Origin: the human T2T-CHM13v2.0 reference genome, Homo sapiens
Direction: 5' to 3' (one strand)
Assembly (NCBI RefSeq): GCF_009914755.1
Contig: NC_060937.1
DNA length: 64,000 nucleotides
Shown here in pieces: positions 12,631 through 26,218 of this stretch. Below the pieces are notes generated by a model, which was given only the letters and a program-made list of their open reading frames with translations, made no database searches and was not told the DNA's origin. The first letter of the stretch is position 1; the number at the start of each line of letters is the position of its first letter. A program made the translations under genes and the position numbers.

Positions 12631-12739
12631 GAGAAAAGTTGAAATTATGCACACCCATAGTCTTTTCACTCTTCTTGGAGAAAGGCTGATGTTGCATACA
12701 AACACTGTGACTGTCACCACATACAACACACTTTATGAG
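12631..12739 (+). CDS. NBEA: NBEA coding exon, 109 nt (RKVEIMHTHSLFTLLGERLMLHTNTVTVTTYNTLYE)
   Basis: Polypyrimidine tract ttcctccttctctccAG; donor GAG|gtaaaa; peptide recognised as neurobeachin; ends in phase 0, matching the next exon. Confidence 0.95.
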
Positions 12740-14105: not shown

Positions 14106-14285
14106 CTGTAATCTCAGCTACTTGCGGGGCTGAGGCAGGAGGACTGCTTGATCCCAGGAGGTCTGCTAGATCCCAGGAGGTCAAGGCTGCACTGAGCTGA
14201 GATCGCGCCACTGCACTCCAGCCTGAGTGACAAAGTGAGACCCTGTCCCCTTCAAAAAAAAAAACAAAAAAAAAAACAAAAACAA
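14106..14285 (+). mobile_element. Truncated Alu (right monomer) with A tail
   Basis: cctgtaatctcagctact...gcactccagcctgagtgacaaagtgagaccc followed by an A-rich tail. Confidence 0.9.
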
Positions 14286-14489
14286 ATTTACACTTCTCTA
14301 ATACTGTTTCTTTTCATGTAAGCCATGGAACAGATCAAGTCAATTGCAGATTTTGCACAGTCCTCAAACAGGATAGGTTTTACATTTTTAAATGATGGGG
14401 GAAAAAGTGTATTTTGGGATGTGTTCAATTATATGAAATTCAAATTTCGGTCTCTGCAAATAAAAGTTTTTGTTTCTTTGGGTTCTTTT

Positions 14490-14975
14490 AAGGAAAAGTA
14501 CAGAGAGTTATTGCAAAGAGAAAAGTACACACTCAGGAAAGGGGAGTGTGGGTATACTTAAGAGAGAGTTGCATGCAAGGGTTTTTGGGGCTGCTACCTT
14601 TATGAATTTCTTCTAACCAAGGGATGGATGGAATATTCATAAAGATTACAGTAAAAGGGTAGATATTTCCCAGAACTGTGATGCTATCTAGTTTTACTCC
14701 AAATATGGGTGTTCCTGGAACCATTATGGTGCTGGTGAGTGTGTGATTTAGTATGTCAGTGAGTGTATAATGAGGTCCTAGGTGAACCTCCATCAAATCC
14801 AGTGCCATACTGGGTGCAGTTAGCCTTAGCTATCTTGGCTCTCATCCTGGCTTTTCAGGGTCTTGTCAACCCCTAGTTTCTGAAGCTATTTCAACAGTTT
14901 CCTTTTGCTAGTCATGCGAAACTGCTGCCTGGAGTTTTTTGTTCTCCTGCAACCACCCTTATTATTCCTGTTTCA
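14490..14975 (-). repeat. 3' LTR portion (U3-R) of the ERV1 element
   Basis: - strand starts TGAAA at 14975 directly after the polypurine tract; ends about 20 nt after an AATAA(c) poly(A)-like signal. Confidence 0.82.
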
Positions 14976-14990
14976 TTTCCCCTTCCCCTT
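14976..14990 (-). other. Retroviral polypurine tract
   Basis: - strand AAGGGGAAGGGGAAA abutting the TG start of the LTR. Confidence 0.85.
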
Positions 14991-15149
14991 CAGAGATGTC
15001 CATCTCTTATTCTTATGGGCTGATGAGGGAGAAGGTCGGTCTTCTTTATCTACTTCCTGCTGATTAGAGATGTTGGCCCTGCCTGGCAAGGGTATGGAAA
15101 TCTTTGGCTGCCTGGCCTGAGGGTTCTAAGGGTGAGTCATCAGGAGACT

Positions 15150-15501
15150 CTGAATCCAAAGCAGGGATTGGAATCATTGCATGACCATCATTTTGACATG
15201 GAACTGTTGTAATGTAAAAGACACAAAATTTACAAGGAGGTTAAACAAGTAAGGACAAAGATTCATAGTAATAAGAGAGCTATTAAAGGTCGAAGGAAGG
15301 AGGAACCATGTCACAGTTGGTAGGTATCCTTTGATGGAGTCCCAGATGGTTTGAGCAGTGGGATTATATTGAAATTATGTAGCCAGGTAGCCTGTTAGTA
15401 AATCTTTTGAACTTTCAGTTCAACTAATCCTGAATTGTTAATATAAGAACAACAGGTGTGGTTTATTACTGTGCAAACCCCTCTTTGTTCAGCCAGAACA
15501 T
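15150..15501 (-). pseudogene. ERV env transmembrane-subunit remnant
   Basis: - strand reads VLAEQRGVCTVINHTCCSYINNSGLV: end of the immunosuppressive domain plus the CX6CC motif. Confidence 0.88.
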
Positions 15502-16843
15502 AAAGCCTCTTGTTGTTTCCTTGACCATTCAAGTAGTTCATGCTTTGGCACGGTTAGAGCTTCATACAGTAGCTTAGCAATGAGCCTAAATCATGGGATC
15601 AAAATCTTGCAAATTCCTGTCATACCCAGGAAAGTTTTGAGTTGCTTCTTCGGTTGTAGAGGCCTGACCTTTAAGATAGCTTCCTTTTGTTCGATGGACA
15701 TGGTGTAGTTTCTTGGGCTTAGGATGTACCCCAGATATTTTACTTCCAGTTTAGAAGTCTGGGCCCTGGGTGGAGAGACTGGATACCCTTTCTCCCAGGA
15801 AGTTTAGAACTTGAATAACATTCTTATCTGAGGCCTCTTTAGTGGGTCTGCATACAAGGATGTCATCCACATATTGGCGTGTGGCTTCCCTTTCTGGCTC
15901 TAGTTCCCTTAATTCTCTTGCCAAGGCATTTCTGAACAAGTGATGGCTATCCCTAAAGCCCGGAGGCAGTACAGCCCAGGTATACTGCCAGGAAATACTA
16001 TTTTCAGGATTAGTTCGCTCAAAAGCAAACAAATAGTGACAGTCAAGGCATAAAGGGATACAAAAGAAAGCATCTTTAAGATCTAATATCATTAACCAAT
16101 TGGTGTCTTCTGATATTTGGGTAAATGTGGTAGAAGGATTTGGCACTTTAGGATGTAAGGGAATTACAGCCTCATTAATGGTTCATAAGCCTTGAACTAG
16201 ACAATATTCTTCATTTTGTTTTTGGACAGGGAGGACAGGACTATTACAAAGAGACTGACATGGAACTGGGAGGCCATGTTTTAAAAACTTCTTAATTACA
16301 GGTTAGAGTCCTCACCTGGCTTCTTGTTTGAGGAGATATTGATGCTTATGTGGGAAATTATTTTTGTCTTTTAAAGAGATGATCACTAGCTGACCATGTA
16401 TTACTTTCCCAGGAGTTTCTTGGTCTCATACTTGTGGTTCCATTTCCAGATCTTACTTTGGAAGGAATCTTCTGTTTGTCTGATACTGGTATCGAAAAAA
16501 CAAGCATTGCCAATACTTGAAAGAAATGTTTCCCAGGGCCTGATAAACATAAAGTGACTCCAACTGTGGCCAGGAAATCCCATTCCAATAAAGAAATGGG
16601 ACATAGAGTTTTGTAGCCTGCAGCTCAGGGGTAAGGTAAAGCGTTTTGATTTTGGAGTGTCATCAACATCCATGACAATGCAGTTATTGGAAGATAAGGT
16701 CCAAGAGTGGCCTTTAGGACAGAGTAACTTGCCCCTGTATCAATTAAGGAATTAATATTATTTCCTGCCATGTCGAGTTACCCAAAGCTCCTTAGTTGTG
16801 AGGACCATGCTTTTGTGGGAGCCGCCAGGAACGTTGGGTCCCT
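15502..16843 (-). pseudogene. ERV pro-pol remnant (protease + RT; RNase H and integrase missing)
   Basis: LIDTGASYSVL protease active site (~16733-16741); RT motifs LDLKDAFF, LPPGFRDS, QYVDD in ORF 15751..16146; KQLKTFLGMTG thumb region; stops and frameshifts. Confidence 0.92.
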
Positions 16844-18326
16844 TCAGTCCTCAGTTATAACCATTATGGCCTCAAGTTTCCTTCTCTCCCTTTGGAGCTG
16901 AGGGCATTCCCTTTTCCAGTGGCCCTCCTGCTTGTAGTGAGGACAGGGTCTGGTTGGGCTCCCTTGGCTGGGACAGGTATTGCGCCTGTGTCACAGCTCC
17001 CCACACTTGAAGCAGCAACCATTACCTTTAAGTTTTCTGGTAGGTCTGCTTGGTCCATGGGTGAAGCATCCCTCTGGGTGACTCTGAGGTTGCAGGATGC
17101 TGCTTATAGTGACTGCTATCATTTGGGCCTGCTGCTGTCTCATTGTTTGCCATGCTAGGTCCTTTCAGCATATTCAGCCCTATCTCTATTATTGAATACC
17201 ACAAAAGCCACATCAAGCATTTGATTAATAGGCATTTGGGATCCCAAAGCCAATTTCTGTGGTTTTCTTCTGATGTCAGGTGCTGACTGGCTGATAAAGT
17301 GTGTCCCGAGTAAAGTTTGGCAAGCATCAGTATGGGGGTCAATGTTAGTATATTTTCTTAGGGCCTCCACAAGGCATCTCTGGAACAAAGCTGGGTTTTC
17401 ATCCTTTCTTTATTTCCCTTATTTTATCATAGTCCACAGGCTTGGTGTTACATTTTTTCATTCCCTTCACTAAACAAGTCACCATATGATTTCTTTTTCT
17501 TAGATCAACTTGGCCCTGTTGATAGTTCCAGTTAGGGTCATTGTTAGGCACAGATGTGGCCCTCATACCATATTCTTCAGAGTCCCCAGATGACAGATTG
17601 TTAGCATAAGCCTGGGCCTCTGCCCAAATATGCTGCTTTTCTTCAGGGGTGCAACACATGGACAAGATGTTATGAATATCTCCCCAAGTTAACTCAAATG
17701 AGAGTGAGAAAGCCCAGAATTCCTTCATGAATTTAGTTGAAAATCAAAGGTACATGCACCTGATGAATGATCCCAGCATCCCCATTGGCTACCTCCCTAA
17801 GTGGACATAACTTAGAATGGTCCCTTAGGAGGGTAGGAAACACCACTGCAGGTGACCCCAGCAGGGCTCAGTTCCCTTGGTAGGGAAGGTTATATAGGAT
17901 GTTAAGGAGGCGGACTAGTAGGAGTCTGGGTGCTGGAGACAGTGGAACTAGGAGAAGACTGAGGACTTAAAGGTGGAGCTGGGTAAGAGGGAGAAGCTGT
18001 GGGTGCCAGACTGTGTCTGGGTCAGGAGGTGAGGGAAGGCTCTGGATTAGTTATTTGATATTTCCTAATTCCAACTAATTAGTTGTTTGATATTTTCCAA
18101 AAGGGGATCATTTAGGATATCTGGTTCCCCATTTGGTTCCCTTAAAGGAAAGGGTGTGAGTATAACAGAGGCAGGAATTCCTACAAAGCTCAGGGTTTTG
18201 ATAAAGAGCTATGAAGGCCTGTACATACAATATTTGAGTCCATTTCTTCTGATGTTCACAAAAAACGATCTAATTACAAGATGGTATTAAAATTTAGGGT
18301 CCTGTTCTTTGGCTGTTGCACCCCAT
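16844..18326 (-). pseudogene. ERV gag remnant with two zinc knuckles
   Basis: MA-like KWTQILYVQAF; CA/MHR YDKIREIKK..ENPALF..LVEALRKYT..FISQSAPDIRRK; NC CFKCGEL*HRRNTC and CPHYKQEGHWKREC; GAC-TGA gag stop at 16844-16846. Confidence 0.9.
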
Positions 18327-18408
18327 TTTCTGAAAGAGAGTTACCCTTGGCTTTGACTTGTTCTTGGGACAACCAACTGCCAGTGATTCTAAAATGAGGC
18401 TGATGATG

Positions 18409-18426
18409 CTCCAGGCTGGCTCATCA
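18409..18426 (-). other. Primer binding site, tRNA-Arg type
   Basis: - strand TGATGAGCCAGCCTGGAG matches 15/18 of TGGCGAGCCAGCCAGGAG (complement of the tRNA-Arg(ACG) 3' end), located just after U5. Confidence 0.75.
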
Positions 18427-18431
18427 TAAAG

Positions 18432-18651
18432 ATAATACTGGTGGGCTGGGCGAGGTTTCCAAACACTGGTGGGACCTTGACCCCAGCTGGTGTTCGGGCT
18501 CTTGATAATAGGAGTTCAAGGATGAGTCACAAAATAGTGATAGCATGGAGATTTCTTGCAAAGAGAAAAGTACAAACTCAAGAAAGGGGAGTGTGGGTGT
18601 ACTCAAGAGAAAGAGTTGCATGCAAGGGGGTTTAAGGCTGCTTCCTTTATG
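18432..18651 (-). repeat. 5' LTR portion (R-U5 only)
   Basis: 18548-18651 aligns with 14503-14604; no U3 homology beyond 18651. Confidence 0.82.
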
Positions 18652-19099
18652 CACAAATAAAGTTTTATAGAACATAACTCATTAAGTAAAGTCCATTGGT
18701 CACTTGACACTACAGAGTTGAGTAGTTGTAATGGAGATTATATGATCCACAAATCTTAAAATACTATCTGATCTTATCTATAAAAAGTTTGTTGACCACT
18801 GCTCTACAGCAGCACAGAGAAATTTAACTCCCCTCTGTTGTTCTTTTTATTACAAGCTGTATTATAGTCTTCTGTCAGAATTAATATTCATCATTGCAAA
18901 AACTTGGAAAATGTAGAAAAGCACCAAAATAAAATTTAGCAAATACTGATTAATACTTAAGAATATATATATATATTTCTCAACTCATACACATATGCAC
19001 ACAGAACTTTTATAAAATGTTATCCTAAATATAGTTTTCTTGTCCAGCTTTTTGCACTTATAATTACAAATATATTTATCACAAAATATTTATCTATAG

Positions 19100-26136: not shown

Positions 26137-26218
26137 ATCTTGACAGAACAAGTATGTACTCAGGTCGTACACAAACCACATCCAGAGCCAGATTCTACAG
26201 TGAAAATTCAGAATCCAA
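26137..26218 (+). CDS. NBEA: NBEA coding exon, 82 nt (ILTEQVCTQVVHKPHPEPDSTVKIQNP)
   Basis: Acceptor ttcatttttcAG, donor A|gtgagc; phase 0 to 1, frame-consistent. Confidence 0.95.

What the first reader, a model, noticed from the sequence alone, without database searches (positions are those of the whole stretch)
14456..18666. ERV1 copy shaped like its RNA genome, with poly(A) tail and long TSD: probable L1-retroposed endogenous retrovirus transcript
Seen: the 5' LTR copy (18432-18651) has only R-U5 and the 3' copy (14490-14975) has only U3-R. They overlap in ~95-100 nt, differing by about 9 substitutions and one 2-nt indel by eye. On the - strand the 3' copy stops ~20 nt after AATAAc and runs into an A-rich stretch (aaaagaacccaaagaaacaaaaa, 14467-14489). 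The element is flanked by caaataaaagtttt (14457-14470) and caaataaagtttt (18654-18666), a ~14-bp duplication that reads at|AAAAC on the - strand. Known: retroviral integrase leaves two full LTRs and a 4-6 bp TSD, whereas L1 target-primed reverse transcription leaves a poly(A) tail and a 7-20 bp TSD at TT/AAAA-like sites. Such processed ERV copies are common for HERV-W and rarely described for other families. Inference: this is a processed pseudogene of an Arg-PBS ERV1 RNA, and it records that family's transcription start region and poly(A) site.
Basis: partly seen in the sequence, partly recalled or inferred. Interest (0 to 1): 0.8.

Follow-up and report, generated by a model that had tools for sequence, protein, structure and literature searches.

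The report
L1-made retrocopy of spliced ERV-MER41E RNA
This 4.2-kb relic in an NBEA intron is a copy of a spliced, polyadenylated endogenous-retrovirus RNA that the LINE-1 machinery pasted into the genome, and several other copies of the same old retrovirus family were made the same way, something usually said to be special to HERV-W.

Summary
On the minus strand the element reads TSD, R-U5, Arg PBS, gag-pro-RT, env remnant, PPT, U3-R, A-rich tail, TSD.

- **Borders.** Full-length LTRs of the family elsewhere in the genome carry both the missing U3 and the missing U5.
- **Poly(A) site.** The 3' copy stops at the same nucleotide where seven other copies run into A-runs. That point lies about 17-20 nt after AATAAA. 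LTRs with U5 continue there as TTTTCTGAC.
- **TSD.** The 13/14-nt duplication at AT|AAAA is rare by chance. It corresponds to a single motif in an uninterrupted paralogue of the host repeat. Solo LTRs of the family have 4-bp duplications instead.
- **New here.** The window copy lacks a leader segment of about 0.9 kb bounded by G|GTAAGT and polypyrimidine-CAG|G, so its template was spliced.
- **5' end.** It lies 34 nt upstream of the start shared by three other retrocopies, so it is probably a minor start.
- **Family.** This is ERV-MER41E (Frith 2025), a non-autonomous gammaretrovirus-like family of about 15 interior-bearing human copies.

I found no paper describing processed copies of this family. 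Reviews call HERV-W the only HERV group mobilised by L1. Verdict: a new member of a known kind, of moderate to high interest.

The parts
18654..18666 (-). 5' target-site duplication AAAACTTTATTTG, preceded by AT (AT|AAAA). Two unassigned bases TG (18653-18652) follow it.
   Evidence: The single homologous motif in the uninterrupted paralogue L071 is shown.
18535..18651 (-). R of the 5' LTR piece (117 nt). It starts at CATAAAGG. The equivalent of the family's main start (GACTCT) is at 18617. The mutated hexamer AAGAAA is followed by CACTA at 18539-18535.
18433..18534 (-). U5 (102 nt). It is absent from the 3' LTR piece.
   Evidence: The LTR end GTATCA (here GTATTA) is placed by comparison with solo LTRs.
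18409..18426 (-). Primer-binding site TGATGAGCCAGCCTGGAG, of tRNA-Arg(ACG) type and decayed at 2 positions.
   Evidence: The related strings tggtgagccagccaggag and tggtgaaccagccaggag are typed R/ACG in the Vargiu 2016 supplement.
18373..18374 (-). Exon-exon junction cagttg|gttgtccc. A leader intron of about 0.9 kb (G|GTAAGT ... polypyrimidine-CAG|G) that other copies keep is missing here.
17155..17743 (-). gag capsid remnant (Gag_p30), in two frames and with stops.
   Evidence: E 7.8e-5 and 4.9e-9.
16901..17015 (-). Two nucleocapsid zinc knuckles (CFKCGEL*HRRNTC and CPHYKQEGHWKREC).
   Evidence: The same strings appear in Vargiu 2016 supplement row rvnr 3942.
16625..16777 (-). Protease remnant (LIDTGASYSVL).
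   Evidence: RVP, E 0.0058, below Pfam's cut-off.
15751..16182 (-). Reverse transcriptase remnant (YVDD). RNase H, integrase and env SU are absent downstream, which is the family-wide pol-env deletion.
   Evidence: RVT_1, E 1.5e-12. The same junction is contiguous in other copies. Frith 2025 describes the deletion.
15395..15553 (-). env transmembrane remnant with a CX6CC-type motif (VCTVINHTCCSYINNSG).
   Evidence: TLV_coat positions 469-498 of 560, E 8.6e-4, below Pfam's cut-off.
14976..14991 (-). Polypurine tract GAAGGGGAAGGGGAAA.
14605..14975 (-). U3 of the 3' LTR piece. It starts TGAAACAGG and is absent from the 5' LTR piece.
14490..14604 (-). R of the 3' LTR piece (115 nt), with the hexamer AATAAC at 14512-14507. 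It ends 17 nt later at the family's poly(A) site.
14471..14489 (-). Decayed poly(A) tail AAAAGAACCCAAAGAAACA (13 A in 19 nt).
14457..14470 (-). 3' target-site duplication AAAACTTTTATTTG.

Best explanation
The element is a LINE-1-made retrocopy (processed pseudogene) of an ERV-MER41E transcript.

1. A source provirus of this non-autonomous, gammaretrovirus-like family was transcribed in the germ line of an early simian. The family has an Arg PBS and lacks RNase H, integrase and env SU.
2. The RNA began in the LTR at a site 34 nt upstream of the family's usual start.
3. Its leader intron of about 0.9 kb was spliced out.
4. It was cleaved and polyadenylated about 17 nt after the R-region AATAAA signal.
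5. L1 endonuclease nicked an AT|AAAA site inside an older repeat in what is now an NBEA intron.
6. The T-rich end primed reverse transcription on the poly(A) tail, and second-strand resolution left a 13-14-nt duplication.

Shown here: the R-U5...U3-R anatomy, the shared poly(A) site, the tail, the TSD, the single-copy target in a paralogue, the intron-sized gap with GT-AG borders in other copies, and recurrence in other copies. Inferred: that L1 was the enzyme (from the TSD length, target motif and tail), germ-line timing, and the age. The age is roughly 40-70 My, from terminal branches of 0.11-0.16 substitutions per site and a recalled neutral rate of about 2.2e-9 per site per year.
For: - **Anatomy.** Searches show R-U5 at the 5' end and U3-R at the 3' end. 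Full LTRs of about 570-590 nt exist at other loci.
- **Poly(A) site.** Searches show the same end point followed by A-runs in eight copies. These are the window, chr1:215.72M, chr7:131.91M, chr8:23.87M, chr4:161.60M, chrX:63.90M (4 nt earlier), chr17:67.15M, and an R-only copy at chr3:16.275M. LTRs with U5 continue as TTTTCTGAC at that point.
- **Genome-wide junction counts.** The R|U5 22-mer with up to 2 mismatches has 90 hits against 10 for the control.
- **TSDs at TT|AAAA-like sites.** The window's 13/14-nt TSD is reached by 17 of 5000 random places. The chr8 TSD AAAATTTGCCAG is reached by 1 of 2000 shuffles. The chr1:215.72M TSD AAAAA(T)GG(G)CAAAGGA sits exactly at both junctions, but 210 of 2000 shuffles reach its score.
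- **Paralogous empty site.** The window's two flanks overlap by 11 nt (AAGACTTTATT) on the uninterrupted host-repeat copy L071.
- **Contrast with integrase.** Solo LTRs have 4-bp TSDs, perfect in 5 of 10 examined and 3 of 4 bases matching in 2 more. Frith 2025 Table 1 lists a TSD of 4 for the family.
- **Splicing.** The window and chr1:215.72M lack exactly the segment that is bounded in chr7, chr2:116.59M and chr1:12.20M by cagttg|GTAAGT and a polypyrimidine tract plus CAG|G. The AG is mutated in chr1:12.20M. All 4 proviral-type copies that hold this region keep the segment.
- **Age.** The tree of U3-R pieces is star-like and the processed copies are as old as the integrated ones.
Against: - The orthologous empty site in other primates was not inspected, because no such genomes were at hand.
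- The tail is short and decayed (13 A in 19 nt), and the hexamer here reads AATAAC.
- The 5' end is not at the start used by three other retrocopies. It therefore does not mark the main U3/R border, and it includes a conserved TATA-like CATAAAGG.
- TSDs could not be resolved for chr7, chr4, chr17, chrX and chr3:16.275M.
- Intron loss is shared with chr1:215.72M. It could have been inherited from an intron-less source provirus and not from splicing of this copy's own template RNA.
- The R|poly(A) 22-mer search gave 11 hits against 18 for its control, so by itself it does not show enrichment.
Confidence: 0.93

Rival explanations
1. It is an ordinary integrase-made provirus that later lost the U3 of its 5' LTR and the U5 of its 3' LTR through two independent deletions. 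On this view the flanking similarity and the A-rich stretch are chance.
For: Old ERVs are often truncated. The tail is impure. Copies such as chr1:56.14M and chr3:158.64M end irregularly in or just after R.
Against: - The 3' end coincides to the nucleotide with the ends of seven other copies, each followed by an A-run.
- The flanks carry a 13/14-nt duplication, not the 4-bp one seen in solo LTRs.
- The paralogue shows a single target motif.
- The intron is cleanly missing.
Confidence: 0.02
2. It is an L1 retrocopy, but its template was an unspliced transcript of a source provirus that already lacked the leader segment. Such a provirus could itself have formed earlier from a spliced RNA or by deletion. 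On this view splicing is not part of this copy's own history.
For: The window and chr1:215.72M share the identical junction. This fits one intron-less source as well as it fits recurrent splicing. The intron start and the second exon both begin with GT, so a 2-nt microhomology deletion cannot be excluded.
Against: - No proviral-type copy lacking the segment was seen. All 4 of the 4 that hold the region keep it.
- The borders are a strong donor (G|GTAAGT) and a polypyrimidine-CAG acceptor.
- The U3-R pieces of the window and chr1:215.72M copies do not group together in the tree, though the tree is poorly resolved.
Confidence: 0.25
3. The 5' end at 18651 is not a transcription start. The template was a longer read-through RNA covering U3 or upstream DNA, and L1 reverse transcription stopped short by chance just upstream of R.
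For: L1 retrocopies are often 5'-truncated. Within this family, chr8 is truncated in pro and chr4 in the env tail. The end lies on a conserved TATA-like box, an odd place for a start.
Against: - A random stop would seldom fall within 35 nt of the start region used by chr1:215.72M, chr17, chr3:16.275M and chr7.
- A second conserved TATA-like motif (ATGAATATT or ATAAATATT) lies 31 nt upstream of 18651's equivalent in U3.
Confidence: 0.3
4. The copy arose by segmental duplication of another processed copy and not by its own retroposition.
For: chr1:215.72M has the same intron-less, full-length layout.
Against: - The flanks, TSDs and 5' ends differ between the two.
- Identity over the element is only about 74-77%.
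- The window's flanks belong to one host repeat that is split by the insertion.
Confidence: 0.01

Closest known systems
HERV-W (HERV17/LTR17) processed pseudogenes made by LINE-1. Source: Pavlicek et al. 2002, as summarised in Grandi et al. 2016 (PMC5016936, passages read).
   Same: - 5' LTR reduced to R-U5 and 3' LTR reduced to U3-R.
- A poly(A) tail and an L1-type TSD.
- Frequent 5' truncation.
- Processed copies coexist with integrase-made proviruses and solo LTRs.
- A minority of processed copies lack a putative leader ('pre-gag') intron (Grandi 2020, PMC6995185, passages read).
   Different: - The family differs: MER41E LTR of about 570-590 nt against 780 nt for LTR17.
- The body differs, and the source here is non-autonomous, with a pol-env deletion.
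- It is older: all simians (Frith 2025) against about 43-20 Mya in catarrhines for ERV-W (Grandi 2018, PMC5775608).
- Numbers are far smaller: 8 found here against 135 HERV-W pseudogenes.
- The 5' ends are less uniform.
ERV-MER41E (Frith 2025, Mob DNA 16:11, PMC11905727; abstract, Table 1 and the ERV-MER41E section read).
   Same: MER41E LTRs, tRNA-Arg primer, gag-pol-env matches with a large pol-env deletion, about 15 human copies, and 4-bp TSDs for integrated copies. All of these match what I found.
   Different: The paper does not mention processed, L1-made or spliced copies. Neither 'processed' nor a poly(A) tail occurs in the main text or in the supplement text held. The window's interior is about 3.45 kb against the 4389-nt interior listed, a gap that the missing 0.9-kb intron accounts for. 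I could not compare with the Dfam model itself.
Ordinary mRNA processed pseudogenes (L1 target-primed reverse transcription).
   Same: Intron loss, a poly(A) tail after an AATAAA signal, a 7-20-bp TSD at TT|AAAA-like sites, and 5' truncation.
   Different: The template is a retroviral genomic-type RNA with its own R repeats, PBS and PPT, so the copy mimics a provirus with clipped LTRs.

Membership tests
L1-made processed pseudogene of an ERV (criteria quoted for HERV-W in Grandi 2016, PMC5016936) | 5' LTR starts in R (R-U5 only) and 3' LTR ends in R (U3-R only), measured against the full LTR. | tested here: met
   Full LTRs at 18 of the 19 other LTR loci examined hold both missing parts.
L1-made processed pseudogene of an ERV | A poly(A) tail directly after R, downstream of a polyadenylation signal. 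| tested here: met
   The tail is 14489-14471 (13 A in 19 nt), 17 nt after AATAAC. Most other copies read AATAAA at that position, and seven other copies have A-runs at the same site.
L1-made processed pseudogene of an ERV | A long TSD (7-20 bp) at a TT|AAAA-like target. | tested here: met
   A 13/14-nt TSD at AT|AAAA, reached by 17 of 5000 random places and 2 of 5000 shuffles.
L1-made processed pseudogene of an ERV | An empty pre-insertion site with one copy of the TSD sequence. | tested here: inconclusive
   Only a paralogue of the host repeat could be used. L071 shows one AAGACTTTATT spanning both flanks. Orthologous sites in other primates were not available.
L1-made processed pseudogene (general) | Loss of introns relative to the source gene. 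| tested here: met
   The leader segment bounded by GTAAGT and CAG is missing at 18374|18373. Six other copies keep it: chr7, chr17, chr2:116.59M, chr1:12.20M, chr9:106.98M and chr1:75.53M.
ERV-MER41E (Frith 2025) | MER41E long terminal repeats. | not testable with these tools
   No Dfam or RepeatMasker here. The label comes from print: Vargiu 2016 supplement row rvnr 3942 gives the RepeatMasker picture 'MER41E' for this locus.
ERV-MER41E (Frith 2025) | tRNA-Arg primer-binding site. | tested here: met
   The PBS strings of the copies match strings typed R/ACG in the Vargiu 2016 supplement. The window's PBS differs from one of them at 2 of 18 positions.
ERV-MER41E (Frith 2025) | An interior with gag, pol and env matches and a large pol-env deletion. 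| tested here: met
   Pfam finds Gag_p30, zf-CCHC, RVP and RVT_1, then TLV_coat positions 469-498 of 560, with no RNase H, integrase or SU. The junction is shared by other copies.
ERV-MER41E (Frith 2025) | A 4-bp TSD on integrase-made copies. | tested here: met
   Solo LTRs: perfect 4-bp TSDs in 5 of 10 examined and 3 of 4 bases matching in 2 more. The window copy itself does not have one, as expected for an L1 insertion.
HERV-W (HERV17/LTR17) | LTR17 and HERV17 sequence. | not tested
   No HERV17 sequence was compared here. Vargiu 2016 classes the locus as non-canonical 'MER41' and not as HERVW. The LTR length here is about 570-590 nt against 780 nt for LTR17.
Integrase-made provirus | Two complete LTRs and a 4-6-bp TSD. 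| tested here: not met

The most novel reading that the evidence does not exclude
L1 mobilisation of retroviral RNA was not peculiar to HERV-W.

- **A second family.** An older, non-autonomous simian ERV family (ERV-MER41E) was retroposed by L1 repeatedly. I found at least 8 such events, about half of its interior-bearing copies.
- **More than one RNA species.** The templates included unspliced RNA, leader-spliced RNA, and even an 80-nt R-only transcript.
- **Transcript ends.** These fossils map the transcription start (GACTCT, about 33 nt after a CATAAAGG box, plus a minor upstream start) and the exact poly(A) site of MER41E LTRs.
Probability: 0.6. Interest if true: 0.7.

Novelty: new member of a known kind. 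Interest (0 to 1): 0.6.

Why it matters
[quoted passage not shown] Grandi 2018 (PMC5775608, Discussion passage) asks what determinants 'limited the L1-retroposition to (H)ERV-W transcripts'. A second family with the same hallmarks weakens the premise of that question and offers a comparison set.
- **It affects annotation and dating.** Such copies have no promoter (no U3 at the 5' end). They should not be dated by LTR-LTR divergence, and they should not be counted as proviral integrations.
- **It gives transcript ends.** The retrocopies supply fossil evidence for the start, the poly(A) site and a leader intron of MER41E-type elements. The wider MER41 LTR group is studied as interferon-responsive regulatory DNA.
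- **No effect on NBEA is claimed.** The copy lies antisense in an intron.

Tried and rejected
- **Pavlicek 2002.** The paper is not held, by DOI or by PMC id. Whether it screened other families is unknown to me. I recall only its abstract.
- **Literature on this family.** I searched for processed copies of MER41, PRIMA41 or other non-W families. No such report turned up. One search had 0 hits.
- **R|poly(A) 22-mer scan.** It gave 11 hits against 18 for the control, so it is not informative as a count.
  - Five hits are family copies: chr4, chr1:215.72M, chr8, chr17 and chr3:16.275M.
  - Three were fetched and rejected for lack of homology: chr2:32.68M, chr18:77.59M and chrX:17.04M.
  - Three identical hits (chr1:42.86M, chrX:91.53M, chrY:5.88M) were not checked.
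- **Unresolved TSDs.** Those of chr7:131.91M, chr4:161.60M and chr3:16.275M were not resolved. The chr17 TSD is lost next to a truncated antisense Alu.
- **Single source?** The tree is star-like and the processed label needs 4 changes, so a single source is neither shown nor excluded.
- **Unclassifiable fragments.** chr3:115.37M and chr7:145.43M are gag pieces only. chr1:56.14M is cut within R. chr3:158.64M has unrelated sequence following R.

Full report
**1. What is in the sequence**

Read on the minus strand, the element runs from 18666 to 14457. Its order is:

- TSD AAAACTTTATTTG (18666-18654), then two unassigned bases;
- an LTR piece from 18651 to 18433;
- the PBS TGATGAGCCAGCCTGGAG (18426-18409) and a short leader;
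- decayed gag, with Gag_p30 and two zinc knuckles;
- protease, then reverse transcriptase (RVT_1, E 1.5e-12);
- a direct jump to the last part of env TM, with no RNase H, integrase or SU;
- the polypurine tract, then an LTR piece from 14975 to 14490;
- the A-rich stretch 14489-14471 (13 A in 19 nt);
- TSD AAAACTTTTATTTG (14470-14457).

The two LTR pieces share only 117 and 115 nt. Across that overlap there are 18 substitutions and one 2-nt indel, giving 84.3% identity.

**2. Are the pieces really clipped LTRs?**

The window's genome could be searched. The 3' piece finds many LTRs at 77-80% identity: 265 candidates, of which 40 were scored. I examined 19 of these loci.

- The 5' piece's match starts at window 18651 in 11 of them, and within 2-3 nt of it in two more. 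That is about 354 nt inside the full LTR.
- The 3' piece's match ends at about 14495 in most.
- 18 of the 19 then continue with about 100 nt homologous to the window's U5.

So a complete LTR is about 570-590 nt. This element has R-U5 at one end and U3-R at the other.

**3. The 3' border is a poly(A) site used repeatedly**

Aligned copies read GCAATAAATCTCTGTACTTTCACTA. After that they follow one of two courses.

- **LTRs with U5** continue TTTTCTGACTCATCC.
- **Processed-type copies** run into A-runs: the window, chr1:215.72M, chr7:131.91M, chr8:23.87M and chr4:161.60M. chrX:63.90M does the same 4 nt earlier. chr17:67.15M and an R-only copy at chr3:16.275M do likewise.

The A-rich stretch is therefore not LTR sequence. 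The end lies 17-20 nt after a hexamer that reads AATAAA in most copies, AATAAC in the window's 3' piece and AAGAAA in its 5' piece.

A genome-wide scan for the R|U5 junction 22-mer, allowing 2 mismatches, gave 90 hits against 10 for the control. The R|poly(A) 22-mer gave 11 against 18. That count is uninformative in itself, but 5 of the hits proved to be family copies.

**4. The insertion signature**

- **Chance.** The window's 13/14-nt duplication is matched in score by 17 of 5000 random places of the same geometry and by 2 of 5000 shuffles. Unlike those, it abuts both junctions.
- **Target motif.** The target reads AT|AAAA.
- **Other copies.** chr8:23.87M is 5'-truncated in protease and has AAAATTTGCCAG at TT|AAAA (1 of 2000 shuffles). 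chr1:215.72M has AAAAA(T)GG(G)CAAAGGA at TT|AAAAA, placed exactly at both junctions but weak statistically (210 of 2000 shuffles).
- **Unresolved.** No TSD could be resolved for the chr7, chr4 and chr3:16.275M copies. None was sought for chrX, whose 5' end is unresolved, and the chr17 one is lost.
- **Integrase contrast.** Solo LTRs of the family (TGAGACAGG...GTATCA) carry 4-bp duplications. These are perfect in 5 of 10 examined, with 3 of 4 bases matching in 2 more.
- **Host repeat.** The insertion sits in an old interspersed repeat. In an uninterrupted paralogue (L071), the window's 5' flank aligns up to AAGACTTTATT and the 3' flank aligns from the same AAGACTTTATT onward. The 11-nt overlap is what a target-site duplication predicts. 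This is a paralogue, not the orthologous empty site, which I could not reach.

**5. The template was spliced**

Several copies hold about 0.9 kb more sequence just after the PBS than the window does. These are chr7:131.91M and chr17:67.15M (both processed) and chr2:116.59M, chr1:12.20M, chr9:106.98M and chr1:75.53M (all with U5-bearing 3' LTRs).

- **Donor.** The extra segment begins cagttg|GTAAGT in chr7 and chr2:116.59M, and caattg|GTAAGT in chr1:12.20M. It is mutated in chr17.
- **Acceptor.** It ends in a polypyrimidine tract plus CAG|GT in chr7 and chr2. The AG is mutated to AA in chr1:12.20M.
- **Intron-less copies.** The window reads cagttg|gttgtccc (18374|18373) and chr1:215.72M reads catttg|gtcatgcc, which is the precise exon-exon join.

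Two of the 4 full-length processed copies lack the segment, against 0 of the 4 proviral-type copies that hold the region. This parallels the 'pre-gag' intron missing only from some HERV-W pseudogenes (PMC6995185, passages read). An intron-less source provirus is the alternative. I give it about one chance in four.

**6. The 5' border**

- chr1:215.72M, chr17:67.15M and the R-only chr3:16.275M copy all start at G(A/T)CTCT.
- chr7 starts about 5 nt upstream of that point.
- This start lies about 33 nt after a conserved CATAAAGG box, as expected for a TATA-directed start.
- The window copy starts at that box itself, 34 nt further upstream (18651 against the equivalent 18617). A second conserved AT-rich motif (ATGAATATT or ATAAATATT) lies 31 nt upstream of it.

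I read the window's end as a minor upstream start. A chance stop of reverse transcription on a longer RNA is the rival, at about 0.3. The element therefore records the poly(A) site exactly, and the start region only approximately.

**7. Which family, and what is in print**

- **Vargiu et al. 2016** (PMC4724089, supplement file 1, row rvnr 3942) lists this locus on hg19 chr13 with the same two zinc-knuckle strings. RetroTector found no LTR or PBS there. The RepeatMasker picture is 'MER41E', and the class is non-canonical 'MER41'. [quoted passage not shown]
- **Frith 2025** (PMC11905727; abstract, Table 1 and section read) describes 'ERV-MER41E'. Its interior is 4389 nt, with a TSD of 4, tRNA-Arg, host range Simiiformes, and about 15 human copies. 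A large pol-env deletion implies it was non-autonomous. My searches with internal pieces found a similar number of loci. The PBS strings agree with Arg/ACG. Neither the paper's text nor its held supplement text mentions processed copies.
- **Reviews.** Reviews call HERV-W the sole HERV group mobilised by L1 (PMC5537654, abstract). They ask what limited L1 retroposition to ERV-W transcripts (PMC5775608, Discussion passage).
- **Searches.** Seven searches found no report of processed copies for this or other non-W families. Pavlicek 2002 could not be read.

**8. Census and age**

| Class | Loci |
|---|---|
| Processed-type, 8 | window; chr1:215.72M; chr7:131.91M; chr17:67.15M; chr8:23.87M; chr4:161.60M; chrX:63.90M; chr3:16.275M (R only, 80 nt plus A16) |
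| U5-bearing 3' LTR, 5 | chr2:116.59M; chr1:75.53M; chr2:219.27M; chr1:12.20M; chr9:106.98M |
| Unclassifiable, 4 | chr3:158.64M; chr1:56.14M; chr3:115.37M; chr7:145.43M |

The tree of 29 U3-R pieces is star-like. Its median terminal branch is 0.11, and the window's is 0.16. The processed copies do not form one clade, but the tree is poorly resolved. With a recalled neutral rate of about 2.2e-9 per site per year, this suggests roughly 40-70 My. That agrees with Frith's placement in the simian ancestor.

**9. Verdict**

The element is an L1-made retrocopy of a spliced, polyadenylated ERV-MER41E RNA. The mechanism is known from HERV-W. The family is a new case of it, and apparently not a rare one within that family.

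Noticed in passing
L064 (chr3:16,274,950-16,275,500), positions 358-437 plus the A-run: An 80-nt copy consisting only of the LTR's R region (GTCTCTC...CACTA) followed by A16. It looks like a retrocopy of a transcript that started and was polyadenylated within one LTR. No TSD was found.
   Followed up: partly
window 18652-18830 and 14250-14470; L066-L071: The retrocopy sits inside an old interspersed repeat with many genomic copies at 73-79% identity. I could not name the repeat with the tools at hand.
   Followed up: partly
L024 1295-1425 against L024 397-530 (chr7:131.91M): The leader intron of the chr7 copy contains a stretch 87% identical to the same element's U5. The same stretch matches U5 of many LTRs. 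Its origin is unexplained; it may be a partial LTR captured in the leader.
   Followed up: no
L060, L061, L072 (chr17:67.146-67.153M): The chr17 processed copy is rearranged. It has an Alu in the intron, an Alu in RT followed by about 250 nt of unrelated sequence, only the last 80 nt or so of U3, and a tail abutting an antisense Alu that lacks its own tail end.
   Followed up: partly
U3 of family LTRs, about 45 nt upstream of CATAAAGG; window 14640-14660: Most copies read TTTTTCCAGGAATCTTCATGAATATTCC, which contains a TTCnnnGAA motif of the kind reported as a STAT1 site in MER41 LTRs (only the search listing of PMC2897888 was seen). The window's copy is mutated there (TTTTACTGTAATC) but keeps TTCCAGGAA further upstream, near 14720.
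   Followed up: no
G000 chr1:42,862,476; chrX:91,534,175; chrY:5,877,918: Three identical 22-mers (TCTCTGAAGTTTCACTAAAAAA) were hit by the R|poly(A) pattern. They probably belong to another repeat.
   Followed up: no
window 14456-18666: None of the 20 longest stretches masked as repeats in NCBI's file overlaps the element, according to the hub's table. The element lies antisense to NBEA in the intron between the exons at 12631-12739 and 26137-26218.
   Followed up: no
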